Positions 4,517 to 45,000 of a stretch of 64,000 nt of DNA are shown here, one piece after another. Source of the stretch: Trypanosoma brucei. Lineage: Eukaryota. The stretch is taken from positions 1,408,001 to 1,472,000 of the forward strand of contig CM000208.1 in assembly GCA_000002445.1 (NCBI GenBank), in the 5' to 3' direction. The notes below the pieces were generated by a model. The model had not been told where the DNA came from. It saw only the letters and a list, made by a program, of their open reading frames with translations, and made no database searches. Position 1 is the stretch's first letter; every line of letters starts with the position of its first letter. The position numbers and the translations under genes are program-made.

Positions 4517-6652
4517 ATGGCTACAACCTTGCCTTTACAGCAACAGCGACTCTTTGACAAACTCGCGCGCGATTTCGATGCACGGGAATATGCAAAGGGC
4601 CTGCGCACAGCCGACAGCATTCTGTCCGTCGTCCCCAACCACGCGGACACCCTCGCACTGAAGGGGTTGACGTTGCACCACATGGGTCGTAAGGAAGAGG
4701 GACGTGAAATCATCGAAAGCGCCCTCGGTTTCAACGATACTTCCACAGTTGTGTGGCATTCGCTCGGGATGTGCCACCGCGCAGATGATAATCACGTGGA
4801 GGCGCTGCATGCGTTCCAGAAGGCACACGAATACGGCCCATCGAACGTAAACGTTCTACGAGATATTTCATCAATCTGTGTACAATTGAGGGAGTGGGAG
4901 CAATTCGTGGACGTTCGCAGAAAGATGGTGACCTTAAGACCAGGCGTCCGCGCCAACTGGATTGCACTATCCTGTGGCCATCGCATGCTTGGAAACAAGG
5001 AATTGGCGGCTGCTGTGATAGACGTTATGACTACTATAATGGAAGCAGGAGATAACAGGGCGGAGAAGAGCGAAGTGCGCCTCTATCAGGTGGAACTAGA
5101 GTTGGCTTGTAATGCGCCTGCCCGAGCATTGGATCTACTGAAGAAACACAGCCAGGAGATCATCGATGAATACGAAAAGGCGTCTCTTCGCGCCAAAACT
5201 CACGCACTTCTCGGGCAAAAGGTGGAAGCTGAGAAATGGTACATGGAGCTCATCACCAGAGGAATGGCGGAGGCGGATTGCGTTGCCGCGATTGCCCAAT
5301 TGCGCAAGATTCCTCTTGACGCAGCCCGACGTCCAAAGCGTGATGTGGATAAATACCTAGAACTTCTTAAACAAGTTCAGGAAGTAAACCCCAAGAGTAA
5401 CTACGCCAAACGGCAGGTCCTGGAATGTGTGCCTATCGAGCAGTTCAGGGACCAACTTCGTGAATACGCGGGGATGTTCATAGTGAAAACCATTCCCTCG
5501 CTTTTCAGTGTTCTCAAATCACTTTATCAGTGTCCTGATCGCACACAGCATATTGGTGAGGTGTTCCATCAATGGGAAGAGGAACTCATGGCGGGAGATT
5601 TCTCAAGCTTCGGTGGAAAGAAAGATCCTACTTTTATTTTGTGGGTTTGGATGTATTTGGCTTCCCACTATTGCCGTATACGTGAGTTTGGACGGGCTTT
5701 GGAGTATATTGGCCGCGCCATCGACCACACACCAACGTTTGACCTTTTGTACCTCATGAAGGCGAAAATACAAGCGAAGAACAACCAGTTGGACGAAGCT
5801 GCGAAAACGGCCGATATGGCACGCCGGTTGGACCTACAAGACAAGTACCTCAACGGAAAGGCTGCCAAGTACTTCTTCCGCGCCAATAAGATTAGGGAGG
5901 GGGAAGCACTAATGCAAATGTTCTACAAGACCACTGAGGTACCTGACGATACATACCTTACTGCGCTGGAATCCCAGTGCGCATGGTATGAAAGAGAGGT
6001 AGGGGATGCGTATTATCGAATGGGTGACTACATCTCTGCACTATCAAATTACCTGATGTGCGAGAGCCACCACCAACGTAATCACAATGAATTGTCCGAG
6101 TTTCACAACTATGTATTTCGTAGGTGCACGATGAGGGCCTGGTTTAACGTGATCGCCTGTGACGACAACCTCGAAGAAAACAAATTCTTTCAGAAACTGT
6201 GCCCCCGTATCGTTAGGACATATATGAAGATTCATGAGGAAGGTGAGGAGGCTGTGCGAGCCAAATATGCTCCTAGACCAGAAGTGGGTAAGTATAGCGA
6301 TGTGGAGGAAGGAAAGCGTATCGCAAACCTGAGACGTACATTCTACTTGCACAACGTAGACATCTCCGATCCTCTCAAGAAAGCAGGGCGATATCTTCAG
6401 GCGTCCCTTCTGCACAATGCGCTGTCATCGGAGGTGCACCTCCTAGCAGTTGAGTTCTACACAATGTGCCGAATGCCCTTTCTCGTGGCACGTGAGTTGT
6501 TGATTTTGGCTAAGTTGAAATGTCCGTCGACGAATGAGCTTGTTACTCAGTTCGAAAACAACCTGTTTCGTGAAATGGCATCCAGCATGGATCCACGGGT
6601 GGAGTCCATAATCAAGGAAACGCTTACTACCGCTTTGGAAAAACTGAATTAA
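4517..6652 (+). CDS. NAA15: N-alpha-acetyltransferase NatA auxiliary (TPR) subunit, NAA15/Nat1-like
   Basis: The N-terminus aligns closely with NAA15: LFDKLARDFDAREYAKGL...ADTLALKGLTLHHMGRKEEGREI...VWHSLGMCHRADDNHVEALHAFQKAHEY...NVLRDISSICVQLREWEQFVDVRRKMVTLRP. TPR-like repeats run throughout the 711 aa. The track ORF starts at GTG 4511; the real ATG is at 4517. Confidence 0.85.
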   Translation: MATTLPLQQQRLFDKLARDFDAREYAKGLRTADSILSVVPNHADTLALKGLTLHHMGRKEEGREIIESALGFNDTSTVVWHSLGMCHRADDNHVEALHAFQKAHEYGPSNVNVLRDISSICVQLREWEQFVDVRRKMVTLRPGVRANWIALSCGHRMLGNKELAAAVIDVMTTIMEAGDNRAEKSEVRLYQVELELACNAPARALDLLKKHSQEIIDEYEKASLRAKTHALLGQKVEAEKWYMELITRGMAEADCVAAIAQLRKIPLDAARRPKRDVDKYLELLKQVQEVNPKSNYAKRQVLECVPIEQFRDQLREYAGMFIVKTIPSLFSVLKSLYQCPDRTQHIGEVFHQWEEELMAGDFSSFGGKKDPTFILWVWMYLASHYCRIREFGRALEYIGRAIDHTPTFDLLYLMKAKIQAKNNQLDEAAKTADMARRLDLQDKYLNGKAAKYFFRANKIREGEALMQMFYKTTEVPDDTYLTALESQCAWYEREVGDAYYRMGDYISALSNYLMCESHHQRNHNELSEFHNYVFRRCTMRAWFNVIACDDNLEENKFFQKLCPRIVRTYMKIHEEGEEAVRAKYAPRPEVGKYSDVEEGKRIANLRRTFYLHNVDISDPLKKAGRYLQASLLHNALSSEVHLLAVEFYTMCRMPFLVARELLILAKLKCPSTNELVTQFENNLFREMASSMDPRVESIIKETLTTALEKLN

Positions 6653-7531
6653 CCGAAGCGGGGTGTTTCACACTACTGCACACAAGCAGGTTTCCCGCTC
6701 AGCTCGCAAGGGGGAATAGGGTAGTGGAGGTGTCGTCATACAAAAACAGATGTGAGGGTGAGATAAACGTACCGAGTAATGGATGTAAGGGAAGGGGATG
6801 GCTCAAATGCAATATAACCCGATCACAACACAGACTGTGGTTGTTTCTGTGCAGCGTACACGTAGCGTGCATAAGGCCAGGTGAGTCCTCTACCGTTTTT
6901 CCAGGTAACGGCTCCCAACTTTCTCTCCCCACTTGTGTTTCCTTTGTGCTGAATCTTCTCTGGGTTACCTTTCATCGACTTCAGCTACATGGCCGCACTT
7001 CGTACTCCCTTATTCTATATACATAGTAGGCCAAGAACATTGAGTAGGCGCACGGTTTGTCCGACCGACCTAGCGAACGAAACAGGAAGGTAAAGCCAAA
7101 AACACATCAAAATAGCTGAGAATGTGTACATGTTATTATTTTTTTTCTTTTCACTGTATACGATAACGATGAAGTATCAGCAAACAAAGTGTATAAGACC
7201 TAGAGGATTTGCGGGGATCGCACACTGTGATGATGGCGTGTGCGGTGCCTAATGTGTCGCATTCGTACTACGAGGTTGTGCGTGTATGTGTGTGGGTAAT
7301 CATCCGCAATCTTTTACTGGAATCATTCTCACTGTTGCACGGGATGTAATATTTCATCTTCACTCCTTTGACTTATTGTTGTGGCAGAGGATGCTGAGGA
7401 GGATGTAGGAGTGCTCTTAAAGGAGATAGAGGAAGTGGAGAGGGTGTAGGTTGTTCTTGTTAATTGTATTTTAATATTAGTAATGTCTTGAGAGAAGTGT
7501 GTATTGTGTAGGTCTATGTATGTGTGTGTGT

Positions 7532-7540
7532 GGGGGGGGG
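7532..7540. repeat. G9 homopolymer within a GT-rich intergenic tract (7500-7560)
   Basis: gtgtgtgtgtggggggggg read directly. Other homopolymers: C11 at 17467-17477 followed by A12; C11 at 29978-29988; T9/C10 at 31873-31892; G14 at 40247-40260. Confidence 0.9.
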
Positions 7541-7800
7541 AGAGATTGTTGGTAGTTGGGAGAAGGGATAGAAAGAAGAAATGAGGGCTCTACGTAAAGT
7601 ACTTTGTGTCAGTGTTGTAGTTATAAATAATACCCGTCACTAAAGTCCGTTGCCACTCAGCGGAGTGCCGCGGGTCGTCGCGGCAGGGTCAATAACCATC
7701 ACCCAAATAACAGGATACCAAGCACCTAACTGGATTATTGAACGGAACGTGTATAAATAGGTATAAAGGAACGGATGCGTGGATCAGCTGCGGTAATATT

Positions 7801-7833
7801 CCACCCTCTCCTTTGTTCTTTGTTCTTTAAAGA
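7801..7833 (+). promoter_or_regulatory. polypyrimidine tract plus AG, likely spliced-leader acceptor for the ESAG6-like gene
   Basis: ccaccctctcctttgttctttgttctttaaag immediately upstream of the ATG at 7846, implying a very short 5'UTR. Confidence 0.5.
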
Positions 7834-7845
7834 AGGGTCGGACCT

Positions 7846-9030
7846 ATGAAGGTGAATTGTTTTCTACCTTTGTTGCTGTCAGTCAGTTATTGCACTTTAG
7901 CCGACGATAGCGCGCTCACACTGAAGGCGGGGGAAAGTATCTGCAAACTGTCGAAAAGGTTGAAGTCAGTGTTCAAGTATGTAGACCGAAGAACGGATAT
8001 TGCCTTGGAAAAGATCTCCGATCTTGAGGATATGTTGGAAGTGGTGAAGTTTAAGATTGTGAAGGGAAGGTCGAATAATACGAATAGAGAGTGCAAGGAT
8101 GTCTCCGATTTTATTATGAGTAAAGCAACTTGGTTGATAAGAAAAGGGAGGAAGGAGGTTGATAGATTGAAATACGTGGGGCTTGCGGCAATTGGAAATG
8201 CGGGACTGGCGGCAGGGAGGTTAGATGAGATGGTCAATGTGTGGAGGAGGGTGTACAGTGCCGGTACTGGAAACTTTTGCATTGGGGATGAAGGGAATGA
8301 AACAAAGAGGACTGCACTTCCAGATTGCTATCTGACAGATTCGGAGAGGGATGACTTTACTGGGATTGATGAAGGGGACAGGTTAGAAGATATAAACAAT
8401 GTTACCGCTGATGCCTTTAATGAATTATTGGAGTTGCATACAGAGGATGATTTGTGGAGTAGCCCATTGACGAGTGGCATGGACGGTAAGGACTGCCGTC
8501 TAACAAATGCCAGGTCTGGCGGAGGTTACCTCGTCGGAGAGAGCCCATCTGGTAATTTGTTTTGGGGAGACGGGGTGCTTGGGGTGAAGAGGGGTAGCCG
8601 AGGGTATGACGGAAGGACGTCGAATGTAAGGAGCAAATTACTCATAAATGATGTAGTGTGGGAAGCAGACACTGTAGAGCATACCCCTATTATAAGGAAT
8701 GTACACGAAGACTTGCAAAATTTTTTTATCGACGCAGAAAAAATTGATGAATTGGTGGGGGAGACTGGGGATAAGTGGAATTGGGAGTTCTCTCATGAAA
8801 TTGGAAGTCACAGTGGTCATCCCTCAGAGTTTGATGATGAGGAGACTGACGATGTAGCGGACAACACATCGGCAGTGGAAGAGGCAGTAGGGAAGGCATT
8901 TGTGGGGTTGGGAAATAGGGAAGCGTTTCAGGAAGAGATGGTGTTGGAAGAGATGGCGTTGTGTGGAGAATGTAATATTTACACTTATTACCAGTTGTTT
9001 TTCTTAGTTTTCGTTCCTGTTTTTGTTTGA
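7846..9030 (+). CDS. transferrin-receptor-like surface protein, ESAG6-like (PAG-like), with C-terminal hydrophobic GPI-signal-like tail
   Basis: N-terminal signal peptide (MKVNCFLPLLLSVSYCTLA). It matches the ESAG6/7 family core remembered from T. brucei ESAG6 (AAGRLEEWIFVFAQ...FCI; ...WGGGV...). Here the corresponding motifs are LAAIGNAGLAAGRLDEMVNVWRRVYSAGTGNFCIGDEG and LFWGDGVLGV...VVWEADTVEHTP. The C-terminus ECNIYTYYQLFFLVFVPVFV is hydrophobic, as in GPI-anchored ESAG6. Confidence 0.8.
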   Translation: MKVNCFLPLLLSVSYCTLADDSALTLKAGESICKLSKRLKSVFKYVDRRTDIALEKISDLEDMLEVVKFKIVKGRSNNTNRECKDVSDFIMSKATWLIRKGRKEVDRLKYVGLAAIGNAGLAAGRLDEMVNVWRRVYSAGTGNFCIGDEGNETKRTALPDCYLTDSERDDFTGIDEGDRLEDINNVTADAFNELLELHTEDDLWSSPLTSGMDGKDCRLTNARSGGGYLVGESPSGNLFWGDGVLGVKRGSRGYDGRTSNVRSKLLINDVVWEADTVEHTPIIRNVHEDLQNFFIDAEKIDELVGETGDKWNWEFSHEIGSHSGHPSEFDDEETDDVADNTSAVEEAVGKAFVGLGNREAFQEEMVLEEMALCGECNIYTYYQLFFLVFVPVFV

Positions 9031-9140
9031 ATCAGTTTCACTTGTTTTGCATCACCGTAGACCAGGTGTCTTTAACATGTGTATATCTTCGGTGGTGGTG
9101 TGTTAGCCTTCCGTGCTGATTTTTTTTTTTGATAGTAGAG

Positions 9141-10304
9141 ATGCTCAAGTTTGTTCTTGTGTTAATACTGATTATTGTTGGTGGTGACTATTGTTATCGT
9201 GGTAACGCTGGGGTGGCTTTGAAGTTGCAAGCCGTGAAGTCCGTGTGCAGAGCATCGAAAAAGCTTAAATCGGTTTTTACATTTGTGAAGGACAAACTGG
9301 AAAAAGCGGATAGAAACTTTTACGAGGTGAAACTGCTGCAAAAGCTACTCCGCTTGAAGCTTCTAACGGAATGGACTAAAGGAGAAAAGTGCGGGACAAT
9401 GAGGGTTTTTCTTACCAACATAAGGGCGAAGGAGAGAAATATGCGACGGGAACTGTCAGCCTTATGGAAAATGGGGAGGAGAGTTGTGGGTGAGGCAGGG
9501 ATTGCAGCTGGGAGACTGGACGAAATGGTGAATGTGTTCGCACAGTCGTACGGCAACGAAAGTGAAACGAAAACGTGTATTGGGGGTACAAATGGCAGTC
9601 CTATGGAGGTTTTGAAAAGGTGCTACGCTAACAATTCCAAAACAGGGGAATGGGAGTTCCTCACAATTACAGAGGGGGGAGAACTGTTTGACAACGAGTT
9701 TGAGACAAACTTGGAGACCACGCTTCACGTTATGTTGTCGCTTGGGAATAGAGCCGATCCGTGGTATGACTATGGAAAGGATATGGGGTGTCAACTCACT
9801 AAAGGAGCCCCTGGGGGTGGGTACATGAAGAGCCATAACCTCACAGAGAACATCATTTGGGGTGATGGCATACTCGGGGTGAGCAAAAATGGAAATGGAA
9901 CTACCGGCTCCAAAGGAAACACGAGAGATGGGAAATATGCTCACGATGTCGTGTGGGAAGCAGAACCCACGAAAAATAATCCCACTCTCCGCAGGGTGAT
10001 CAAAGATTTTAGTGCATTCGAAGAATTATTTGCGAAGGTGGAGTCTTCCCACAAGCTGTTAATAGATGCATTTCTCCAGGAGAAATTGTTTGCTGAGGAA
10101 TTCGAGGCTCTTGCGGTTAGAACTAAGAAGAAAAGAGTGATCATTGGCGGTTCCACCTCCACCAAAAATAAGCAGAACAATGCCTTGGGGGGTAGTGGTG
10201 CCGGCGATGATAACGAAGTGAGTATGGAAGAGTGGTTGTCGCAAGTGGATGGGGGAATTGTAGAAGAGAGGTTGTTGGCGGAGGAAATGAAGGAGTGTAC
10301 GTAA
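9141..10304 (+). CDS. transferrin-receptor-like surface protein, ESAG7-like (PAG-like), lacking a C-terminal hydrophobic tail
   Basis: Paralogue of the preceding gene (GEAGIAAGRLDEMVNVFAQSYGNESETKTCIGG; IIWGDGILGV...DVVWEAEPTKNNPTLRRVIKDF). Signal peptide MLKFVLVLILIIVGG. The protein ends ...ERLLAEEMKECT with no hydrophobic GPI signal, the arrangement of ESAG7 relative to ESAG6. The track ORF starts at TTG 9129; the real ATG is at 9141, preceded by a T10 polypyrimidine tract and AG. Confidence 0.8.
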   Translation: MLKFVLVLILIIVGGDYCYRGNAGVALKLQAVKSVCRASKKLKSVFTFVKDKLEKADRNFYEVKLLQKLLRLKLLTEWTKGEKCGTMRVFLTNIRAKERNMRRELSALWKMGRRVVGEAGIAAGRLDEMVNVFAQSYGNESETKTCIGGTNGSPMEVLKRCYANNSKTGEWEFLTITEGGELFDNEFETNLETTLHVMLSLGNRADPWYDYGKDMGCQLTKGAPGGGYMKSHNLTENIIWGDGILGVSKNGNGTTGSKGNTRDGKYAHDVVWEAEPTKNNPTLRRVIKDFSAFEELFAKVESSHKLLIDAFLQEKLFAEEFEALAVRTKKKRVIIGGSTSTKNKQNNALGGSGAGDDNEVSMEEWLSQVDGGIVEERLLAEEMKECT

Positions 10305-11928
10305 ACTACCTTGCACAAATTGGATAAAACTGCTTACCTAATATACAAATACATGTTAATATTGGATATAGTAATGTTTCCCCACTGGATTGATATTTGG
10401 GGTTCCCTTTTTTAAATTAGTTTCTTTGTGTTAAAGTGCCTGTAACTTTGTGGAGATGTCCGCCAACGAAACTACGCTGTTGCTGTTGGTTGTTGTGAGC
10501 GTACATTCTCGTCGAAACGCTTTGAGAAAACGAATCACAAAAGAATATATGTCAGGGAGTTGGCTGCCGCCCACCAACCCTGCGACAAGGACGAATGTAT
10601 AATCCTCAGTTTTTGAAATACTGAAAACATTTGTTGCCATGACACTTCCTCATTCGACTGTTGGTCCGTAGATACATGGTAAAGTATATGATTTACTCCG
10701 TAATCCACTAAAAAATTTGGGAGGGTAATATATAAAAAGTTGTCCCTTTTTAAGATCAAAAAGTTGTTTGAGAGGTGGCGGAAGTCCGCAGTCGCCGAGG
10801 TTGGGGAAATTACACCACAGTGGGGCCCAGGGTACCAGTGGCAACTGGATAAGAGGCCTGTACAATCCAATTAAACAAGTATCGTGCATTTTCTTGTTTT
10901 GAAAATAATATTGTAACGTGGCAACCACATTAGTGAAGTAAAGTTAGTATGTTTATGCGTGCACCTCTTGTGAGAGCGGTAGAGGCGAGGTCGACGCAAC
11001 AATAGGGATCAAGTCACTGGACGCCCCCCTCAAAAAAAAAAAAAGTAAGTGATCTCTCACTTCTCAACCATTAGTGGCGCTGGAAACTTCAAACGGTTTC
11101 AAAGGCCTGACTAACCAGTAATGTTGAGGAATTCCAAGAAAAAAGGCAACGTCCTACACACGAGAATCGTCGTTGCGTGCCACATACGGCGTTTCACAAG
11201 CGCACACGTACCGAGCTATCGCATATTTTTCACACCAGTTGCATTGGACACAGTTTCATGTGAAGGGGCGACTCTCACCAAACAAAACAAAGCTGGAGAG
11301 AAACAACTCACTGCCAAATAAGTCACCACAGTCATGCCCCGGTTTACCACCCCTTTTCAGTCGCCCCTCGCCTGTCTGTGCTTTTGGATGCTCCCGCAGC
11401 ACAACAAGGTTTAACCGTACAAAACGATGTTGAATCGAGCTGTATTTCGCGATACGTCGGCAACATCCGCCAACTGGTTGAGTCTCAGTTACCTTCCGTT
11501 AACGTGCTACATGCGTTCTCCTTGTGACGGGGAAAGCAAAGGTTGACTTAGTGATACGACCAAGACGTCTGTTAGCGCCCATACCAACAACGACTAACCA
11601 GAAGAGCATTCACGTCCCACGTTGGCAAGTCGTTTAACTTCGTCCGATTACAAAGACAAGAAAAAAGTCTTTCATCCGCCTCGGCGTGGAAAGCGAGGAG
11701 GTCATCAGCATTTCAAGATTCCTAATCCTAACCTTATTAATAAACACGTTGCTCCCCAAACCACTAATTTCAAATTTACATTAGGGACGAAACTCTCGTT
11801 GGCAAACAAATCGCAATGTCTTAGCATAAAAGCAATCGCCAGACTATCGAAACGCGTACTGTTGTGTGTCACATTTTTATTTTCTAAAACAAAATTTTAT
11901 TGGTATTTGTGTGATAGAAGATCAACTA

Positions 11929-12624
11929 ATGGACAAGCAGGAAATGTTGATTCTGTTATTTTCTTTACTGTTTCTTCGCAACCCAGCGGAAGCTTACATT
12001 TCGCGCTGGTATCTACGCCCGGATCGCGACCCGGATTGCACAGATTTGAAAGGCGTATCTGACGTTCTGACCATGATGCGTGATGCTGAAGTTGCCAAAT
12101 ACGCGACCAAAAATTGCACACAACTAAAGGGGGAGGACTCGCGTACAGGGAAGCAGACGGGCAACTGCACTATTTGCGTTGGTCATTACATCTGCCATTC
12201 TCTGTATAAATGTGTGAGTAAAGACTTTGTCAGGTTTTTTGGAAATGGTAGCCAGGAAGAACCCGCAAGCGAAGAAAAAAAGGACAACGAGTCGGCTCTA
12301 GATGCTGCAGACACTTCCTCCTCAGGAACTGGAACTGAGTCTCCTGAAGAAACTACTGGCGGTAGAACCAATGTTAGATCTAATGTGGAAGATGTGAATG
12401 ACGGTAAGGAGAATGTGACCTCTCCTGAAGAAGAAAGCAGGGGCGCTCCACACGGTACCGCGGTTCCCCCTCTCGAGGAAAGAAGCCCGAACCCTACTGA
12501 CAGAAACAACCTAACACGTAATCACGTCTTAACTCTATTTGCTGGAAAATTTTCAAGCAATTCTCAACTTGTGTTGAATTTAAACAATAAGATTATGCTT
12601 TCAACGTTATTTTTCTTGCTATAA
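11929..12624 (+). CDS. small secreted, probably GPI-anchored, acidic, N-glycosylated protein, copy 1 (family not recognised)
   Basis: ATG at 11929 checked; the track ORF begins at GTG 11866. Signal peptide MDKQEMLILLFSLLFLRNPAEA. The cysteine-containing N-domain has several N-x-S/T sites (NCTQ, NCTI, NGSQ, NESA, NVTS). An acidic S/T/E-rich middle follows (EEPASEEKKDNESALDAADTSSSGTGTESPEETTGG...). The C-terminus KIMLSTLFFLL is hydrophobic and GPI-signal-like. Confidence 0.55.
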   Translation: MDKQEMLILLFSLLFLRNPAEAYISRWYLRPDRDPDCTDLKGVSDVLTMMRDAEVAKYATKNCTQLKGEDSRTGKQTGNCTICVGHYICHSLYKCVSKDFVRFFGNGSQEEPASEEKKDNESALDAADTSSSGTGTESPEETTGGRTNVRSNVEDVNDGKENVTSPEEESRGAPHGTAVPPLEERSPNPTDRNNLTRNHVLTLFAGKFSSNSQLVLNLNNKIMLSTLFFLL

Positions 12625-13202
12625 AAAAGACGAGAGATAAACTAGTTTGCTAACTGAAAACAATCCAAAACCCCTAACTGTATTGCCGCTGTCCACGTAC
12701 ATATATGTTCATATCACCTATGAGCACCCAGTGGGTGTGTTCCAACATATATTTCCTCCCTATTTTGCGTACCCTTTTCATTTCGCAGGCACCATAGTGC
12801 TCATAACATCATATGTTTACAGATACGCCGAAGTTACTCTACATAGAGTAAGCGTACAAAACATATAACAGAAGGGGCTGCGTAATTAGCGATACTGTTT
12901 GCCAGTTACGTAACACAACAAATACTTGCTAGGTACCCACCTTGGACAGAGGCACGGGTGGAGTCGTGGACAATGTGTTGTGTGCTGCCGTTATCGATCA
13001 GTTGTGGCGAATGGTTGAACATGTACACTGTGAGTAAAGTGCCCCCTATAATACCTTTGTGAAACAGGAAAAGGTGTTTTAATGCATAGTAACCCTTATT
13101 GGTGGGTTGTAGTTGTTTCATCAAAATTTGTGTTGTTGTGTATTATATTTTTATTTTCCAAAACAAAATTTTATTGGTATTAGTGTGATAGAAGATCAAC
13201 TA

Positions 13203-13886
13203 ATGGACAAGCAGGAAATGTTGATTCTGTTATTTTCTTTACTGTTTCTTCGCAACCCAGCGGAAGCTTTCGAATCGCGTTCGTATGTAAAGCCAGATGG
13301 AGACCCGGACTGCACAAATTTGACAGGTGTTTCTCATGTTCCCTATCACAATGATATGGATGATTACGCGGAAGAAAATTGCACAAAAATAAAGACACCG
13401 TCTCATAATAAAGAGCAGACGGGCAACTGCACTCTTTGCGTTGGTCATTACATCTGTCATTCTCTGTATAAATGTGTGAGTAAAGACTTTGTCAGGTTTT
13501 TTGGAAATGGTAGCCAGGAAGAACCCGCAAGCGAAGAAAAAAAGGACAACGAGTCGGCTCTAGATGCTGCTGACACTTCCTCCTCAGGAACTGGAACTGA
13601 GTCTCCTGAAGAAACCACTGGCGGCAGAACCAATGTTAGATCTAATGTGGAAGATGTGAAGGACGGTAAGGAGAATGTGACCTCTCCTGAAGAAGAAAGC
13701 AGGGGCGCTCCACACGGTACCGCGGTTTCCCCTCTCGAGGAAAGAAGCCCGAACCCTACTGACAGAAAGAACCTACCACATGATCGCTTCCTCGCTTTAT
13801 TTACTGAACACTTTTTAAGCAATTCTCAACTTGTGTTGAATTTAAACAATAAGATTATGCTTTCAGCGTTATTTTTCTTGCTATAA
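13203..13886 (+). CDS. small secreted, probably GPI-anchored, acidic, N-glycosylated protein, copy 2 (paralogue of 11929..12624)
   Basis: ATG at 13203 checked. The signal peptide is identical and the region NCTLCVGHYICHSLYKCVSKDFVRFFGNGSQEEPASEEKKDNESALDAADTSSSGTGTESPEETTGGRTNVRSNVEDV is near-identical to copy 1. Divergent parts are FESRSYVKPDGDPDCTNLTGVSHVPYHNDMDDYAEENCTKIKTPSHNKE versus YISRWYLRPDRDPDCTDLKGVSDVLTMMRDAEVAKYATKNCTQLKGEDSRTGK. Hydrophobic tail IMLSALFFLL. Confidence 0.55.
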   Translation: MDKQEMLILLFSLLFLRNPAEAFESRSYVKPDGDPDCTNLTGVSHVPYHNDMDDYAEENCTKIKTPSHNKEQTGNCTLCVGHYICHSLYKCVSKDFVRFFGNGSQEEPASEEKKDNESALDAADTSSSGTGTESPEETTGGRTNVRSNVEDVKDGKENVTSPEEESRGAPHGTAVSPLEERSPNPTDRKNLPHDRFLALFTEHFLSNSQLVLNLNNKIMLSALFFLL

Positions 13887-15445
13887 AAAAACGAGAGATA
13901 AACTAGTTTGCTAACTGAAAACAATCAGAAATAGAGAGTGATATCGTTCATACGTGTTTAATTGTATTTTTTTACCAATATTGCTGTATGTTTCTTTGAA
14001 CATTTAGTGGCTTGTAGTATTGTACGGTAGTGGAAAAGGTAGACACCTAATGGGGTTTGTACTTCTGTTGATGGTGGTGTAGTGTTGTTAAAGGATAGCG
14101 CTATTGACAGGGGATTGCGTGTAACGAGGGAATGGAAAATGTGTTTGGGACTAATGGAAGGGAAACGTAGATAACATAATGTAGTGAGGTCGCGTAATTA
14201 ATGCTCATTACGGTAGCATGGCTTCGTGGCGGGGTCTGATGGATACGCAACGGCATGCGTGGGGTGAACAGGGGCTATGTTACCCAGGCAAATACGGAGA
14301 GAAATTGTATGCCACTGCATCGTTGCGCGGTGTAGGAAGGATATTGACCACATGGGATGTTATGTTGTACGAATCTGGTTTCTCTTTTGTCCTAATCTCC
14401 TAGTTGGGGGTGGAAAGGGAATCTGCTAGAGGAAACGGGGAGAGGCATTATGTCTGCGGCGGTTTCGTTGGTCGAGGGAAATGGGTATGGATATTAGATC
14501 CGACTTGAGAGCCGCTCTTCACTACACCAGATTGCGGAGCTCTATCCGAAGGAAAAGTGCACCGGCACGGTGGGCAATTGGGTAGAGTGCTCAGAGTTGT
14601 GAGTATATGCTAGGGTGTATTTGCATATTTCCTGCTGAACCAAAGCGGGAGACAGGAATAAGCGGGGATAATGGGATGGTTTCTCGTGGTTTGTACTGCT
14701 ATGCGCGGATGTTTTGTCAGGTGTGGACGACGGGTTAACTGAGGGGCGGCGTTTCCCGAAAAGAAAAGTGCGGAGCGGATGCGACGCAGATATATTTTTA
14801 AGGCGCGTAATTGGCAGTGCGGTAAGCATACTGAGGGATATCGGAAAATAGGACAGTGAATATGCGGAGGGGAGTGAGCAATGGCAACTCCTGAAAAATG
14901 AAAGACCAAGAGGCGACGCCGGTACGACACACGAGGAAAGCACAGAAGCATTTTCGCGTTGTTGGCCATCCAGCAAGCTTTTCCTCCCATCCATACAATG
15001 CTTCCGCTGCCCCTTTCACGTACATTGGTCCCCGCAGGTGTAGTTCCTGTGGATAATTCTCTTAGGGTTAAGTTCGATTTCTCCGCGTGAAGTGGTGTAC
15101 CCCCAAAATTCCCCATTATTGTTCGTCCCACCTTTACAGTTTGCGGTTTCCTTGCAGGCCTCTTTTTCTACACATCCGTAATCAAATTTGTTTGCCGCTT
15201 CCGTGTCAATGGATGTTCATTGGGTGCCACCGCAGAAGTGGTAGGGGACTCTGGGGCGAACGCTGTTTTTGACAAGTTCCAGAGTTTTCTGATTTTGTTA
15301 CTCTTTGTTTTAGTGATTTGTCGATCCATGACCTTCTGAGGCAGCTCTACGTTAGCCCCCGTTTCATATAGTTGTTGTTGTTTTTCCAAACGCTTTGCGG
15401 GCGTTTACGCACTCCTCGACGTCCACTCCCCGTATTGTACGGCCT
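13887..15445. other. convergent strand-switch region between the plus-strand unit (ends 13886) and the minus-strand unit (last gene ends 15446/16406), presumed Pol II transcription termination zone
   Basis: All confident ORFs left of 13886 are on the plus strand and all right of 15446 are on the minus strand. The region is relatively GC-rich and holds only overlapping short ORFs (14542-15131) with no recognisable product. I found no tRNA-like T-loop (GGTTCGAnTCC) by eye. Confidence 0.7.
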
Positions 15446-16039
15446 CTACGGGCAGGTCGTGGAGTCTCCAAACCCCTTTTCGTGCATTTGACACCTAAAC
15501 TTTTTCGCTTTCACAATGAAAACTTCCGGGGGAATCTCGGAAAGAGGTGGTATAACTGAGGCGGTTGTGCAGGTTCGAAGGCTTTGCCCATCTATAGCAA
15601 GGTGATTTCCAGCCGTACCGTTCATTTCATGCACCGACACTTCGCCCCAGAGAAAATAGCTCGGTTGAGCGGCATCAGCAACAACAACAAAAGAGAGGAA
15701 AAACGATCGTAGTTGCTCCACCTTCATGTTTCCCCAACCCGCGCCGCAGGCATGAGGAACGCAAGCCTGCGCTACACAACCAGTAAGGGTGACCGCCACA
15801 GTTCCCTGCACTTGATTCATTTCGAAATGCAAAATTGCGCGTCCTCCTCGCCGCCTGCAAAAAATAGGATCAACGCTCAGTTGTTTTAGTGGTGTTCTGT
15901 AATCCTGGCGCAGAAAAGTGGTGTTAAGATTTAATTCCTTCAGCCCCCAAGCATCTCGTGACTGCAAGAAAATGAAGAGAAGCATTACAACACCGACATG
16001 CCACCAGCGAACGCATGAGAATAAGACAGCGCTGGGCAT
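15446..16039 (-). CDS. hypothetical protein with N-terminal signal-peptide-like segment; last ORF of the minus-strand unit
   Basis: ATG at 16039 checked. 197 aa, N-terminus MPSAVLFSCVRWWHVGVVMLLFIFLQSRDAWG, no recognised domain. It lies directly beside the termination region, so it could be spurious. Confidence 0.3.
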   Translation of the reverse strand: MPSAVLFSCVRWWHVGVVMLLFIFLQSRDAWGLKELNLNTTFLRQDYRTPLKQLSVDPIFCRRRGGRAILHFEMNQVQGTVAVTLTGCVAQACVPHACGAGWGNMKVEQLRSFFLSFVVVADAAQPSYFLWGEVSVHEMNGTAGNHLAIDGQSLRTCTTASVIPPLSEIPPEVFIVKAKKFRCQMHEKGFGDSTTCP

Positions 16040-16405: not shown

Positions 16406-16993
16406 TCATTTGCTTCGCGTCAACCCAAGAGTGCAGCGGCGGTCACACAAAGGGCGACGATAACGAGGAAGGGAAGATGGGCTTTTAAGAAGCGACCGGC
16501 CGTGAATGGCAAGGCCCCATGCAATCCAAAACATATTCCACGGCCGCCGTGGTCCGTTTGTCATTTCCTCCAAAACAGACGCGACGTAAGAGTGGCAGTT
16601 GTTTGTGAAGAAATTGTACGTTTGTGTTTTGCGGAAACGCGTCGTAACGCCGCTTAGAGCTCTGTCGTACTCCTCCGTCTCCCGTCGCCTTCTCTCTTCT
16701 ACATCCCCCGACAACAAACCACCCGGAGGAAATCGGGAGGATGGAACGTACATGGCTGAAATGTCCCAATATTTTACGGGGTTTCCAAACAACATGTGAT
16801 CCACTCCAATGCAATACGACCCCTCAAAGTCAAATATTCTGCCAGTGGAATCACATATTCCCACGTGACCCACAAAGGGAAACAACCACGAGACCAGGGG
16901 GATATCGGTCCACACAATGCAGAACGGGTAACGCTCCGGGGTCACAGAGGAAGTTGAGGTTGTATTGTCACTCATTGCGTTCCGCCTTGTCAT
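16406..16993 (-). CDS. TMEM222 / RTE1-family protein (DUF778)
   Basis: RYPFCIVWTDIPLVSWLFPFVGHVGICDSTGRIFDFEGSYCIGVDHMLFGNPVKYWDIS and ...YNFFTNNCHSYVASVLEEM match the conserved TMEM222/RTE1 core (…PFxGHxGICxSxGxIxDFxGPY…; …NCHSFVA…). The track ORF starts at GTG 16999; the ATG is at 16993. Confidence 0.7.
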   Translation of the reverse strand: MTRRNAMSDNTTSTSSVTPERYPFCIVWTDIPLVSWLFPFVGHVGICDSTGRIFDFEGSYCIGVDHMLFGNPVKYWDISAMYVPSSRFPPGGLLSGDVEERRRRETEEYDRALSGVTTRFRKTQTYNFFTNNCHSYVASVLEEMTNGPRRPWNMFWIAWGLAIHGRSLLKSPSSLPRYRRPLCDRRCTLGLTRSK

Positions 16994-42037: not shown

Positions 42038-45000
42038 TTATTTAATGGATGCATGACGGCCGTGGTAATCACCAATCAGTAAAGTCCTCACCGACTCACG
42101 CACCAAAGCTGGTAATATTGGCGGCAGTTTCTTTTTGATAGCCTCGGGGGTGAGATTCTGTTTAATTTCTTCTAGAGTGCACACCCCAGCGAACTGTTCA
42201 GCCGAGACGTACTTTAGCAAATCCTTTGTGCCTATCGCTTTCCTTATGTCTCTTGCTTGCTGCCTCCTCAAGATGTAAGTTTGGTCAGTTTGTTCCGAAG
42301 AGACGGAGCTGTTGCTTCTTAAATGAGCTTGTTCCATTGATGCATACCCCTTTGACGGCGCGGCCCGCACCAATAGGTGAATCTCATCCTTAATGAGAGA
42401 GGCAAGAGCGACGTGCAACCACCTGTAGAATTCCTCTGTTGTCGTCTGCGTAACAAAAGAAGACCAACTCGCACGCAGGGCGTAATTGTGGGCACCAACG
42501 GACTCAATAAACAAGCGCTCCGCGTTGTCACTTGCAGAGCAATTCTGCTGCACTCTCCTCCTAACGGATTCGTACGCGCCATAGGATACAAAATCATCCA
42601 CGCAAGTAACGGAGTCATTGCAAACCTCTCGGTGCATATCACTTGAACCAACCACACGTTCAACTGCGTTGCATCGCACGTTTGCATCGCTCTCGCACGA
42701 CGCAGCTTCCAGGAAACCACATGTTACTTCCGACTTCTCGCCACCAACAATATATGGAAGCGCATCGTTAGAAAATGTGGCACTGTCCACATCGGGAAGT
42801 GTGCCACCCGCCGTGTTTTCGCGGACGGCTGTCTTTTTGAAGTTGCGCCCGCTTTCCAAGTAGTGAGGATGAATATTAGGTGTTGCGTCAGGTTCCTGTA
42901 GAACCTTAGCATAGAACTCAGCAGTGTTTCCTACGCCCCCAAGTATACCTGCAACCGGTCGAGTGATGAGTCCCACAGCTCCGGTGGCAACGCCAGTAAC
43001 GAAACCTGTCAAGCCTGAGGTTCGCACGCCGTTGAGCGGACGTGAGAAAACGCCCGCAATGCCATCACGTAAGCCCTGCCCCATACCCCACAGCACTCCT
43101 CCCTTCTTCGCAGGGTCACCTACGCGGTGATGCCCTTCACTCACTTGCTCAAGCCACTCGTTGTCCCACGAGAAGTTCGCCGCAGTGCGACTGCCGGCAT
43201 GGGAAATTAACCCAACGGAGTGCAAAGTGGAGGATGTCGTCGTACACAGGAAGTCACGCAACCCCTTAAGCATATTCATTTCTGCTGTCCCAAGTAGAAG
43301 GGATCGGACACCTCTCTTCCACCCACTCAACAGTGCAATAGGATTTCCGAGAACTTCCATGGAACCAACAATCCTAGGAAACTGCAGGGCAAGTTGGTTG
43401 CGATATAGCGGCCACAGTGCTTCCAACAGCGCGCAGCCTACCGAGTTACTTCGCTGGTTTATATCTTCCATACTTATACCGTTTATACTCAAAGGGGCGC
43501 GCTCTACCGAAGGTATGAAACGGCTTATGGAAAATAAACCCGCGAACGGATCGTACAAGCCATCCTTGCGCCGAGTAATGGTAAACTCCAACTCAACTGG
43601 TGATACCTCTAACGTTGCAATGTGATAGTTATTAACAGCACCACGTTCGCGCAGCTCCGTGGTAGATAATTCATCCTTCGTGCTTGGTTTGCAAACATTC
43701 GAACCAGTCACATAACTTTCCTCCGTACTTTTCATCTGACACTGCTCGCTCTCCAAGCAACAAGCCGCCTGCTGGAGCAGAAACAAGAACGTGTCCGACA
43801 CCTTTACGGTAACGGGCGCGACCTTAACAGAGACGCTCCTTATCCGGATGGTTTTCACCTTCTTCTTATTTGAGGTCATATCAATGGCGGCGCGCCGTTC
43901 AGGTACAAGAACATGCAATTGTAGAGAAAGACAGGGTTTCTTCAGTATATTGCCTGAAACGGCACCAACCGCGTCGACGGTATTGATTAGTACAACAACA
44001 GGGTGAACTGGTTCTGGTGTGGTGCAGTCCACGACAGCCACACGACCAACATCCATCCGACCGAAGCAATGCCTTTGATTGAGCGATGCCGTACAGTATA
44101 TTCCAGTCGCTTCCATAAGGATCAAATCCAATTCACGGCACTGGATATAAGACAGTGCTTGTGCGTCCGTAAAGCTAGAGTTCGTTGTGGGCACAAAATG
44201 GAATTTGTTTTGAGTCACAAACGGGGCCAAGGGCGTGTCTAGCAGCGAATGAACTGTTTTCGGAACGCATTTGGAGGCAACGTAGAGCGACACCGTGTGG
44301 ACAAGCACTTCCAAATGCAGGATACGTTGTGGCCTAAATACAAGGGCACTTTCAAGAGAGCGGTCGCCTGTTACAGAAATGTGATACTTCTGCTGCCCGC
44401 AGTCAAGGGTGCAGAGCACAAACATATCCGGTGCCACCTTTACTCCCTCACACGCAGTTGCGACTTCGTCGAGGTTTATCGTGCAAGTCTGAGAGTACCC
44501 ATAGTCGCCATGCAACGTCAAGCGTATGGCAGCATTCGCGTCGTCACTCTCAAAGCAAGTCACACTGTCGGTGAAGGGTTGCACAATGTATGAACGCTCG
44601 GCCTTTGAGACGCCCGACAAAGAGTGTGGCATCTCTTCGTAAATCAGAAGACGGTTTGTGCGGTTTTCAACAACGATATGCGTACCCCCATCCAGGTCAA
44701 AGTCAACTAAGAAGCGTGACCTCCGCTTGTTCGGCACAATAGAAAGACAAGCAAAATTCTCTGGAATGGGATCATCTCCATAAAGTGGCGGAACACGTAA
44801 TGAGCGGAGTGTTATGACGCCCATTGAATTTAATAGGTTCCGGAACGCTGGATCCCTCCCATCAGTGCTTCCCGTCGAAACGTAATGCTTCATTACAATA
44901 GGCACATTCAAAGTCGACAGCGTTAAAAGCCTCACTTTGTTTGACCAAACGAAGAGGTCACCCACCTCCTTATGGACATAGCAAACTTGCACGAGTGGGT

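What the first reader, a model, noticed from the sequence alone, without database searches (positions are those of the whole stretch)
6653..13925. Surface-protein island at the distal end of a transcription unit, flanked by housekeeping genes and a strand-switch region
Conserved core genes (NAA15 upstream; TMEM222, dioxygenase, adenylate kinase and VCP across the switch) flank a roughly 7 kb block. The block contains only surface-protein genes (the ESAG6/7-like pair and the duplicated small GPI proteins). It also holds unusually long G/T-rich and homopolymer-containing intergenic spacers (6653-7845; 10305-11928). Lineage-specific surface gene families in trypanosomes tend to accumulate at the ends of transcription units and at strand-switch regions. 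This looks like such an accessory insertion into otherwise syntenic sequence.
Basis: inference. Interest (0 to 1): 0.6.

Follow-up and report, generated by a model that had tools for sequence, protein, structure and literature searches.

The report
Trypanosoma brucei-specific surface-gene block at convergent switch
This is a real block of predicted surface-protein genes specific to the Trypanosoma brucei group, sitting where two conserved transcription units converge, but the literature described it as a non-syntenic, bloodstream-upregulated cluster in 2010, so it is confirmed rather than new.

Summary
The window is T. brucei TREU927 chromosome 10. NAA15 is followed by a transferrin-receptor-like pair (Tb927.10.5680/5690). 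Then come two small genes with a signal peptide and a GPI-type tail (5700/5710), a convergent strand switch, and RTE1/TMEM222, LigB, ADK and VCP on the other strand.

None of the block's proteins has a tblastn match at the orthologous loci of eight other trypanosomatids. Leishmania keeps the frame (NAA15 convergent with ADK-VCP). T. grayi has NAA15 and RTE1 about 450 bp apart, across a 10-N scaffold gap.

The claim of unusually long, G/T-rich spacers fails: both lie inside the window's normal range.

Veitch et al. 2010 already listed these four genes as a 14-122-fold bloodstream-upregulated, non-syntenic cluster at a convergent switch.

What I add:
- 5680/5690 is a paralogue of the PAG1-PAG5 cassette of the procyclin locus (100% bootstrap for each pairing).
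- The small genes are old duplicates partly homogenised by gene conversion.
- The same slot holds a GP63 array in Megatrypanum and another putative GPI protein in T. vivax.

T. congolense could not be checked. Interest is low.

The parts
4517..6652 (+). NAA15 / NatA auxiliary subunit, the conserved left flank and the last conserved gene of the plus-strand transcription unit (Tb927.10.5670 by inference from numbering).
   Evidence: Pfam PF12569, 1.5e-81. Orthologues at 55-69% identity across trypanosomatids.
6653..7845 (+). 1193-bp spacer upstream of the PAG1-like gene. Ordinary in length and composition. Contains G9 and T8 runs.
   Evidence: length and G+T within the window's range. No Rfam hit, tRNA or procyclin ORF. 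The only ORF is a 100-aa GTG ORF with no features.
7846..9030 (+). Tb927.10.5680 (old ID Tb10.70.1310, annotated 'PAG1, putative'). A transferrin-receptor-like protein with an A-type VSG fold, a signal peptide and a hydrophobic GPI-type C-terminus. It is the paralogue of canonical PAG1.
   Evidence: PF00913, 8e-11. phmmer to ESAG6 (6SOY_A), 6.9e-14. AF2 pLDDT 73 with best Foldseek hit 6SOY_A at 6e-11. 41-44% identity to PAG1 with 100% bootstrap. Exact match to XP_822812.
9031..9140 (+). Very short (110 bp), T-rich (43% T, with a T11 run) intergenic region between the two genes of the pair.
9141..10304 (+). Tb927.10.5690 (old ID Tb10.70.1300, annotated 'PAG2, putative'). A transferrin-receptor-like protein without a hydrophobic C-terminus. 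It is the paralogue of PAG5.
   Evidence: PF00913, 2.5e-13. phmmer to ESAG7 (6SOY_B), 5.8e-20. 53-58% identity to PAG5 with 100% bootstrap, and the C-terminal ends are alike. Exact match to XP_822813.
10305..11928 (+). 1624-bp spacer. Not G/T-rich (G+T 0.48). Contains an A13 run. No gene remnant detected.
11929..12624 (+). Tb927.10.5700 (old ID Tb10.70.1290; probably the protein named ESP3). A 231-aa protein with a signal peptide, a roughly 85-aa domain with six cysteines, an acidic Ser/Thr/Pro-rich stalk and a GPI-type tail. Variant type A.
   Evidence: Translation. Exact match to XP_822814, in a cluster that includes a T. b. equiperdum protein named 'ESP3'. Predicted GPI-anchored by Savage 2012. 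No Pfam family.
13203..13886 (+). Tb927.10.5710 (old ID Tb10.70.1280). A 227-aa tandem duplicate, variant type B.
   Evidence: 80% amino-acid identity to 5700. Direct repeats 11846-12670 and 13120-13931 with about 1262-1274 bp spacing. Mosaic divergence: dS 0.82 in codons 23-76 against 0-0.05 elsewhere.
13887..14609 (.). Core of the convergent strand-switch (termination) region. The plus strand is G-rich (GC skew 0.36). No tRNA or Rfam RNA.
   Evidence: The SSR 'between Tb927.10.5710 and 5720' gives RBP33-bound transcripts that rise on RBP33 RNAi (PMC4162612).
14610..15116 (-). Tb927.10.5720, an annotated 168-aa T. brucei-specific ORF of doubtful coding status.
   Evidence: Called in T. b. gambiense and T. 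b. equiperdum. No Pfam family. Coding-strand GC skew of -0.16, opposite to 19 of the 20 other genes in the window. The splice acceptor mapped 396 nt upstream of its start falls inside the next ORF.
15446..16039 (-). Tb10.70.1260 (Tb927.10.5730 by inference). A 197-aa 'T. brucei spp.-specific protein' with a signal-peptide-like N-terminus. It is the lineage-specific tail of the opposing transcription unit.
   Evidence: name and exact match. No Pfam family. No tblastn hit in other species.
16406..16993 (-). RTE1/TMEM222-like gene, the conserved right flank and the last conserved gene of the minus-strand unit (LigB, ADK and VCP lie upstream of it).
   Evidence: PF05608, 6e-50. Orthologues in T. 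vivax, T. theileri, T. grayi, T. cruzi and T. rangeli.

Best explanation
The region is a lineage-specific accretion of genes, found here only in the T. brucei group (Trypanozoon), at the two facing ends of an old convergent strand-switch. One unit ends with NAA15. The other ends with VCP>ADK>LigB>RTE1.

Two modules were added on the NAA15 side.
1. A two-gene transferrin-receptor-like cassette, with a GPI-signal subunit followed by a subunit without one. It is a paralogous copy of the PAG1-PAG5 cassette of the EP/PAG1 procyclin locus on the same chromosome.
2. A small cysteine-containing protein with a GPI-type signal that duplicates in tandem. There are 2 copies in TREU927 and DAL972 and 3 in a T. 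b. equiperdum assembly. Two old N-terminal variants are kept, while the signal peptide and stalk are homogenised by gene conversion.

Two T. brucei-specific ORFs sit at the end of the opposing unit.

Inferred, not shown here: the genes are most likely transcribed by RNA polymerase II reading through from NAA15, with termination at the switch. Published data say all four mRNAs are strongly enriched in bloodstream forms. The pair most likely forms a heterodimeric surface or flagellar-pocket receptor of unknown ligand.
For: SHOWN HERE.
- Gene content and identity.
- No homologue of 5680-5730 at the orthologous loci of eight other trypanosomatids, while the flanks are found (loci).
- Frame conserved in L. 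donovani and T. grayi.
- Block conserved in T. b. gambiense and T. b. equiperdum, with copy-number variation of the small gene.
- 5680 pairs with PAG1 and 5690 with PAG5, each with 100% bootstrap. No T. congolense sequence falls inside either pair, and the presence or absence of a hydrophobic tail matches.
- The PAG1 and PAG5 accessions are consecutive, XP_823245 and XP_823244. The locus order PAG1, PAG5, PAG2* is given by Haenni 2009.
- TfR-like fold.
- Mosaic dS pattern of 5700/5710.
- No procyclin genes, PAG remnants, tRNAs or Rfam RNAs in the block.

FROM PAPERS.
- Veitch 2010 (PMC2837033): the four genes are 14-122-fold up in bloodstream forms, at a convergent SSR, and not syntenic.
- Jackson 2010 (PMC2854126): Tb10.70.1280 lies at an SSR, has a signal peptide and GPI site, and evolves fast.
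- Reynolds 2016 (PMC4721609): one chromosome-10 'PAG2' lies in an RNAP II PTU.
- bioRxiv 10.64898/2026.08.17.745214: 5680/5690 predicted to form a heterodimer.
- RBP33 paper (PMC4162612): the switch downstream of 5710 behaves as a termination-zone SSR.
Against: - T. congolense, the species that matters most for dating the insertion, could not be inspected. Its chromosome records are not in the searchable collection. Only the tag TCIL3000_10_4810 for NAA15 was seen.
- The T. grayi junction contains a 10-N scaffold gap, so 'no gene in between' is not strictly proven there.
- The frame is not uniformly syntenic. T. vivax and T. rangeli have other convergent partners, RTE1 lies elsewhere in Angomonas, and no RTE1 or LigB match was found at the L. 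donovani locus.
- Expression reports disagree. Savage 2012 detected 5700/5710 only at very low level in salivary-gland parasites and not in bloodstream forms.
- Tagged ESP3 was not at the surface.
- The polymerase, the absence of a promoter, and heterodimer formation are not shown by anything I ran.
Confidence: 0.75

Rival explanations
1. The four genes form an autonomous, stage-regulated transcription unit with its own promoter in the 1.2-kb spacer upstream of 5680. It could be an RNA polymerase I unit, like the procyclin and VSG expression sites that house their relatives. On this view it is not the passive tail of the NAA15 polymerase II unit.
For: Four contiguous genes with unrelated sequences are co-upregulated 14-122-fold in bloodstream forms, and Veitch 2010 explicitly speculated about RNA polymerase I. 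The closest paralogues, PAG1 and PAG5, are polymerase I-transcribed. The 110-bp intergenic region inside the pair recalls the very short spacers Veitch noted in the chromosome 11 cluster.
Against: The block is on the same strand as, and directly downstream of, NAA15. Reynolds 2016 treats the chromosome-10 non-procyclin 'PAG2' as lying in an RNAP II PTU. Veitch found no similarity to known polymerase I promoters for the analogous chromosome 11 cluster. The spacer is compositionally ordinary. I could not test promoter motifs or chromatin marks.
Confidence: 0.12
2. A VSG-like surface gene directly downstream of NAA15 is ancestral to African (salivarian) trypanosomes. On this view the T. brucei pair and the T. 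vivax 433-aa gene are divergent descendants in situ, so the block is old and remodelled rather than inserted in the T. brucei lineage.
For: In T. vivax the gene after NAA15 encodes a 433-aa protein with a signal peptide, a hydrophobic C-tail and an N-terminal motif (AAVKICSLSGALRDVSKAL) resembling the family motif. hhalign gives E 0.01 over 30 columns. A combined TfR+VSG HMM scores it at 11.8 bits in two collinear segments, against a maximum of 8.3 in 1000 shuffles.
Against: HMMs built from TfR-like sequences alone or from VSGs alone give only 3.6 and 3.1 bits, below their shuffle maxima. There is no Pfam hit even at E<=10 and BLASTP is insignificant. 5680 and 5690 are each other's distant relatives and pair with PAG1 and PAG5, which implies a duplication within the T. 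brucei lineage. Jackson 2013 found no TfR-like genes in T. vivax.
Confidence: 0.08
3. The apparent island is an annotation or assembly artefact, for example a mis-joined contig or spurious ORFs.
For: Tb927.10.5720 has atypical strand composition and an odd splice site, so at least one annotated ORF may not be a gene.
Against: The same arrangement is present in three assemblies: TREU927, DAL972 and T. b. equiperdum. The PAG-like genes have strong family and fold support. Transcripts and a proteomic detection are published.
Confidence: 0.02

Closest known systems
'Differentially expressed gene cluster 2' of Veitch et al. 2010 (BMC Genomics 11:124; Tb10.70.1280-1310)
   Same: It is the same four genes at the same locus. 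That paper already states that they lie in a polycistronic unit at a convergent strand switch, are not syntenic with other kinetoplastids, and are co-upregulated in bloodstream forms.
   Different: Nothing differs in kind. This analysis adds the explicit cross-species locus comparison, the PAG1/PAG5 cassette paralogy, the mosaic structure of the small genes, and the rejection of the spacer claim.
PAG1-PAG5 cassette of the EP/PAG1 procyclin expression site (Tb927.10.10240/10230)
   Same: These are the closest paralogues: 5680-PAG1 at 41-44% identity and 5690-PAG5 at 53-58%, both with 100% bootstrap. They share the same tandem order and the same asymmetry of a hydrophobic tail followed by no tail.
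   Different: No procyclin genes lie upstream and the unit is not polymerase I-transcribed. The block sits at the end of a housekeeping polymerase II unit. The genes are bloodstream-enriched rather than expressed in procyclic forms, where the procyclin-locus PAGs are transcribed. Primers from the PAG1 5'UTR have no match here.
ESAG6/ESAG7 heterodimeric transferrin receptor (PDB 6SOY)
   Same: Same superfamily and fold. Same tandem arrangement of a GPI-signal subunit and a subunit without one. A recent preprint predicts that the pair forms a heterodimer.
   Different: Only 20-22% identity. The two subunits are 27-31% identical to each other, whereas Jackson 2013 describes ESAG6 and ESAG7 as very closely related. 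The location is chromosome-internal rather than telomeric. The ligand is unknown and transferrin binding was not tested.
Chromosome 11 PAG2-like/PAG4-like + ESAG2/ESAG11 cluster (Tb11.01.6210-6250; Veitch cluster 1) and the chromosome 7 ESAG6/7 pair at a strand switch (Tb927.7.3250/3260)
   Same: These are also TfR-like genes parked at strand-switch regions (stated to be convergent for the chromosome 11 cluster) inside core chromosomes. The chromosome 11 cluster is likewise non-syntenic and bloodstream-upregulated.
   Different: They belong to different subfamilies: PAG4-like on chromosome 11 and true ESAG6/7 on chromosome 7. Their companion genes are also different.
Species-specific surface-gene expansions at synteny breaks and strand-switch regions (El-Sayed et al. 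2005 TriTryp comparison; cited from my own knowledge)
   Same: This is the general phenomenon: lineage-specific surface families accumulate at non-syntenic internal sites and at the ends of transcription units. Here the same slot also carries GP63 genes in Megatrypanum.
   Different: This block is a small, four-to-six-gene instance rather than a large array.

Membership tests
Transferrin-receptor-like family (ESAG6/7 + PAG; Fam14/15 of Jackson 2013) | N-terminal domain homologous to A-type VSG / ESAG6-7 in sequence and fold | tested here: met
   PF00913 at 8e-11 and 2.5e-13. phmmer to 6SOY chains at 6.9e-14 and 5.8e-20. AF2 model of 5680 (pLDDT 73, pTM 0.68) has 6SOY_A as best Foldseek hit at 6e-11, ahead of VSGs.
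Transferrin-receptor-like family (ESAG6/7 + PAG; Fam14/15 of Jackson 2013) | Tandem pair made of a subunit with a GPI signal and a subunit without one | tested here: met
   5680 ends ...YYQLFFLVFVPVFV and 5690 ends ...LLAEEMKECT. The genes are 110 bp apart on the same strand. This rests on sequence prediction only.
Transferrin-receptor-like family (ESAG6/7 + PAG; Fam14/15 of Jackson 2013) | Forms a heterodimer and binds host transferrin | not testable with these tools
   A heterodimer is predicted by others. No ligand is known.
Procyclin-associated genes in the strict sense (PAG1-5) | Located downstream of procyclin (EP/GPEET) genes inside an RNA polymerase I procyclin transcription unit | tested here: not met
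   NAA15 lies directly upstream. There is no EP or GPEET repeat ORF anywhere in the 64-kb window. Reynolds 2016 places it in an RNAP II PTU. The database names 'PAG1/PAG2, putative' reflect similarity only.
Procyclin-associated genes in the strict sense (PAG1-5) | Sequence groups within the PAG (Fam14) clade rather than the ESAG6/7 (Fam15) clade | tested here: met
   NJ tree: 5680 with PAG1 and 5690 with PAG5, both 100% bootstrap, inside a PAG / T. congolense PAG-like clade (76%) that is separate from the ESAG6 clades.
Lineage-specific (non-syntenic) gene island at a strand-switch region | Flanking genes conserved and convergent in other species | tested here: met
   L. donovani has NAA15 > zf-PARP | < ADK < VCP. 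T. grayi has ADK > RTE1 | < NAA15. T. theileri and T. melophagium are compatible. The flanks are rearranged in T. vivax and T. rangeli.
Lineage-specific (non-syntenic) gene island at a strand-switch region | Island genes absent from the orthologous position in other lineages | tested here: met
   No tblastn hit at E<1e-3 for 5680-5730 in the fetched NAA15- or RTE1-anchored loci of eight species. T. congolense was not tested.
Lineage-specific (non-syntenic) gene island at a strand-switch region | Island present throughout the lineage that owns it | tested here: met
   Present in TREU927, T. b. gambiense DAL972, T. b. equiperdum and T. equiperdum OVI.
RNA polymerase I expression-site-like unit | Own promoter, polymerase I occupancy, alpha-amanitin resistance | not testable with these tools
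   No reference promoter sequences or ChIP data were available. Primers from the PAG1 5'UTR do not match.

The most novel reading that the evidence does not exclude
The convergent junction between the NAA15 unit and the ADK-VCP unit is a recurrent landing site that independent trypanosome lineages have each filled with their own surface-protein genes. T. brucei has the PAG1/PAG5-like pair plus the ESP3-like genes. Megatrypanum has a GP63 array plus a GPI-type protein. T. vivax has a 433-aa GPI-type, possibly VSG-like, protein. In T. brucei the block would also be switched as one unit at the level of transcription, either by stage-specific termination after NAA15 or by a local promoter, rather than gene by gene through mRNA stability. 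That would make it a compact core-chromosome model for transcriptional control of a bloodstream-specific receptor cassette.
Probability: 0.15. Interest if true: 0.6.

Novelty: already known. Interest (0 to 1): 0.22.

Why it matters
The finding is a correct reading of raw sequence, but the locus is annotated and published as a non-syntenic, bloodstream-upregulated cluster at a convergent strand switch.

Its remaining value is as a small, tractable example of two questions.

1. How trypanosomes add surface receptors at the ends of transcription units. The PAG1-PAG5 cassette exists in two copies under very different transcriptional regimes, which makes a natural comparison.
2. Whether whole terminal blocks can be regulated together.

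The ligand of the 5680/5690 heterodimer is still unknown, and that is the biologically most interesting open point.

Tried and rejected
1. Unusual spacers. Measured and rejected: length, G+T and homopolymers are all within the window's normal range.

2. Hidden features in the spacers or the switch. There are no tRNAs, no Rfam families at E<=0.1, only two trivial tandem repeats, no PAG pseudogene remnants by tblastn, and no procyclin-like EP/GPEET/DP repeats.

3. Homology of the 1.19-kb upstream spacer to the 1263-nt PAG1 5'UTR. I could not fetch the EP/PAG1 locus; the look-up of PAG1 returned nothing. Published PAG1-UTR primers have no meaningful match. Inconclusive.

4. Fold of the small GPI proteins. 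AF2 gave pLDDT 33.8, which is unusable, so no fold search was run. There was no Pfam hit even at E<=10.

5. T. vivax 433-aa ORF as a TfR/VSG homologue. The signals were weak and inconsistent.

6. T. congolense synteny. NAA15 is known only as a UniRef record (TCIL3000_10_4810) with no contig. No RTE1 orthologue was listed. The PAG-like hits from T. congolense all lie on unassigned contigs or chromosome 1. Not resolved.

7. The first word-indexed protein search with 5680 found only its own cluster. The exhaustive HMMER search was needed to find the family.

8. A first NJ bootstrap run timed out. A second used a distance formula that fails at high divergence. Only one search is used.

Full report
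**What the window is.** Exact look-up of the proteins encoded at 7846-9030, 9141-10304, 11929-12624, 13203-13886 and 15446-16039 returns T. brucei brucei TREU927 chromosome 10 records XP_822812, XP_822813, XP_822814, XP_822815 and XP_822817. The old locus names fit the series Tb10.70.1310 down to Tb10.70.1260. Three papers let me map the current IDs by order and description, which is inference rather than a direct sequence link:
- 5680/5690 is the TfR-like pair.
- 5700/5710 is the small related pair.
- The switch lies between 5710 and 5720.

**Checking the observation.** The ORF list and Pfam scan confirm the stated gene order:
- NAA15 (PF12569, 1.5e-81).
- Two genes with the A-type VSG domain (PF00913, 8e-11 and 2.5e-13).
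- Two small genes that are 80% identical.
- On the other strand, RTE1/TMEM222 (6e-50), LigB dioxygenase (6e-28), adenylate kinase (3e-41) and VCP/CDC48.

The two TfR-like genes are only 31% identical to each other. The first ends in a hydrophobic tail and the second does not. The small proteins have a signal peptide, a domain with six cysteines, an acidic Ser/Thr/Pro-rich stretch and a hydrophobic tail.

The part of the observation that fails is the spacer claim.
- At 1193 and 1624 bp, the two spacers sit in the middle of the window's intergenic lengths (329-3379 bp among same-strand gene pairs).
- Their coding-strand G+T is 0.55 and 0.48, within the window's 0.41-0.61.
- Homopolymer runs of eight or more are found in most (14 of 20) spacers.
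- Nothing is hidden in them: no tRNA, no Rfam family, no PAG remnant, no procyclin-like repeat.

The lineage-specific zone also extends beyond the stated end. Two T. brucei-specific ORFs lie on the minus side of the switch, at 14610-15116 and 15446-16039.

**Synteny test.** I anchored orthologous loci on NAA15 and RTE1 orthologues and fetched 10 kb on each side.
- *L. donovani:* NAA15 > a zf-PARP gene > 5.6 kb without a convincing ORF < ADK < VCP.
- *T. grayi:* ADK > RTE1, then NAA15 on the other strand, with about 450 bp between the stops. That interval contains a 10-N scaffold gap.
- *T. theileri and T. melophagium:* RTE1 is followed, across a switch, by a 373-aa signal-peptide/GPI-type protein and a GP63 (Peptidase_M8) gene. 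NAA15 is followed by at least four GP63 genes.
- *T. vivax:* NAA15 is followed by one 433-aa signal-peptide/GPI-type ORF, then converges on a different unit (TBP, cation efflux). VCP-ADK-LigB-RTE1 is kept on another contig.
- *T. rangeli:* RTE1 converges on yet another unit.
- *T. cruzi:* a LigB-remnant/RTE1 unit is tandemly repeated.
- *Angomonas:* RTE1 lies elsewhere.

A tblastn of all six block proteins against these loci gives no hit at E<1e-3, while the flanking proteins are found at 55-86% identity. The block is present in T. b. gambiense and T. b. equiperdum, with three copies of the small gene in the latter.

Two caveats remain: T. congolense could not be examined, and the junction is generally plastic rather than a single clean insertion into a fixed frame.

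**What the genes are.** An exhaustive profile search finds 41 relatives. By name these are the canonical PAGs, T. congolense 'PAG-like' and 'ESAG6-like' proteins, ESAG6, and A-type VSGs.
- 5680 is closest to PAG1: 41% over the full length by BLASTP and 44% on trimmed columns.
- 5690 is closest to PAG5: 53% by BLASTP and 58% on trimmed columns.
- A neighbour-joining tree puts each pair together with 100% bootstrap, inside the PAG clade and apart from ESAG6.
- PAG1 and PAG5 are adjacent in the EP/PAG1 locus (consecutive accessions; order stated by Haenni 2009). They show the same asymmetry of tail and no tail.

The pair here is therefore a paralogous copy of a two-gene cassette. No T. congolense sequence falls inside either pairing, so the duplication is most simply placed in the T. 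brucei lineage. The direction of copying is unknown.

The database labels 'PAG1/PAG2, putative' reflect similarity only. The strict PAG criterion, residence in a procyclin unit, is not met.

Fold support is direct. phmmer to the solved transferrin receptor gives 6.9e-14 and 5.8e-20. An AF2 model of 5680 (pLDDT 73) has 6SOY as its best structural match.

**The small genes.** The duplicated unit is about 1.27 kb. Divergence is mosaic:
- Codons 23-76 have dS 0.82 and dN/dS 0.56.
- The signal peptide and codons 77-190 have dS of 0-0.05.

Both N-terminal types are present in T. b. gambiense and T. b. equiperdum. These are old duplicates whose ends are kept alike by gene conversion. There is no evidence of positive selection in the variable part. 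No family or fold could be assigned.

**What the literature already says.**
- Veitch et al. [quoted passage not shown] They are up 14-122-fold in bloodstream versus procyclic T. b. gambiense, lie at a convergent strand switch, and are not syntenic with other kinetoplastids. The authors speculate about RNA polymerase I.
- Jackson et al. 2010 single out Tb10.70.1280 as a fast-evolving signal-peptide/GPI gene at a strand switch, reported as specific to African trypanosomes.
- Savage et al. 2012 predicted 5700/5710 to be GPI-anchored and conserved only in T. b. gambiense. They detected them only weakly, in salivary-gland parasites, which disagrees with Veitch.
- Gadelha et al. 2015 found ESP3 in the bloodstream surface-labelled proteome, but the tagged protein localised elsewhere.
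- The RBP33 study used the switch downstream of 5710 as an example of a convergent switch whose transcripts rise when RBP33 is depleted.
- Reynolds et al. 2016 state that one chromosome-10 'PAG2' lies in an RNAP II unit.
- A 2026 preprint predicted that 5680/5690 form a heterodimer and co-expressed them in a complement-binding screen, in which a different protein was the hit.
- Jackson et al. 2013 do not mention this pair in the main-text passages I searched on ESAG6/7 homologues outside expression sites.

**Mechanism, with shown and inferred steps marked.**
- *Shown:* the block's genes have no detectable homologue at the eight comparison loci and are conserved across T. brucei subspecies. It sits at the distal end of the plus-strand unit. 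It is built from a duplicated receptor cassette and a tandemly duplicating, gene-converting small gene.
- *Inferred from papers:* polymerase II read-through from NAA15 with termination at the switch, and bloodstream-enriched mRNA.
- *Inferred:* the pair forms a GPI-anchored heterodimeric receptor.
- *Not resolved:* whether co-regulation is transcriptional, and what the ligand is.

**Verdict.** I rate novelty as already known and interest as low. The only mildly new points are the PAG1/PAG5 cassette paralogy and the repeated use of this junction by different surface families in different trypanosome lineages.

Noticed in passing
window 7846-10304: The two PAG-like genes have a coding-strand GC skew of 0.41 and 0.31. 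The other genes in the window range from -0.16 to 0.15. This is a distinct compositional signature of unknown cause, perhaps amino-acid usage or origin from another genomic compartment.
   Followed up: partly
window 13887-15116: The switch region is G-rich on the plus strand (skew 0.36). The annotated minus-strand ORF Tb927.10.5720 shares that composition, giving it a coding-strand skew of -0.16. Its mapped splice acceptor lies inside the neighbouring ORF. It may not be a real protein-coding gene.
   Followed up: partly
L001 13252-14553 (T. vivax): The gene directly after NAA15 in T. vivax encodes a 433-aa protein with a signal peptide, a hydrophobic C-tail and an N-terminal motif resembling the PAG/ESAG6 family motif. 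Statistical support for homology is weak and inconsistent.
   Followed up: partly
L003 13099-22142 (T. melophagium); L008 16129-20612 (T. theileri): In Megatrypanum the slot between NAA15 and RTE1 carries an array of GP63/Peptidase_M8 genes and a 373-aa signal-peptide/GPI-type protein. The same junction has therefore been filled with a different surface family.
   Followed up: partly
L006 1-15000 (T. cruzi): A unit made of a degraded LigB plus an intact RTE1 gene is tandemly repeated at least six times with a period of about 2.6 kb.
   Followed up: no
window 11846-13931; L009 17395-20629: The small GPI genes are mosaics. The N-terminal domain is old (dS 0.82), while the signal peptide and stalk are almost identical. 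Copy number is 2 in TREU927 and DAL972 but 3 in a T. b. equiperdum assembly.
   Followed up: yes
window 9031-9140: Only 110 bp, with a T11 run, separate the 5680 stop from the 5690 start. This leaves almost no room for a 3'UTR plus splice signals. Veitch 2010 noted similarly short spacers in the chromosome 11 PAG/ESAG cluster.
   Followed up: no
L005 3123-3132 (T. grayi): A 10-N scaffold gap flanked by G and C runs sits exactly in the RTE1/NAA15 convergent junction. The 450-bp distance there is therefore provisional.
   Followed up: no
elsewhere on T. brucei chromosomes 10 and 11 (not in the window): Two further PAG relatives lie outside the procyclin loci: a truncated 206-aa 'PAG1, putative' (XP_822951, chromosome 10) and a 369-aa PAG4-like protein on chromosome 11 (XP_829517). 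[quoted passage not shown]
   Followed up: no
window 42038-56269 (-): A single ORF of 4743 aa occupies 14 kb of the minus-strand unit. I did not examine it.
   Followed up: no
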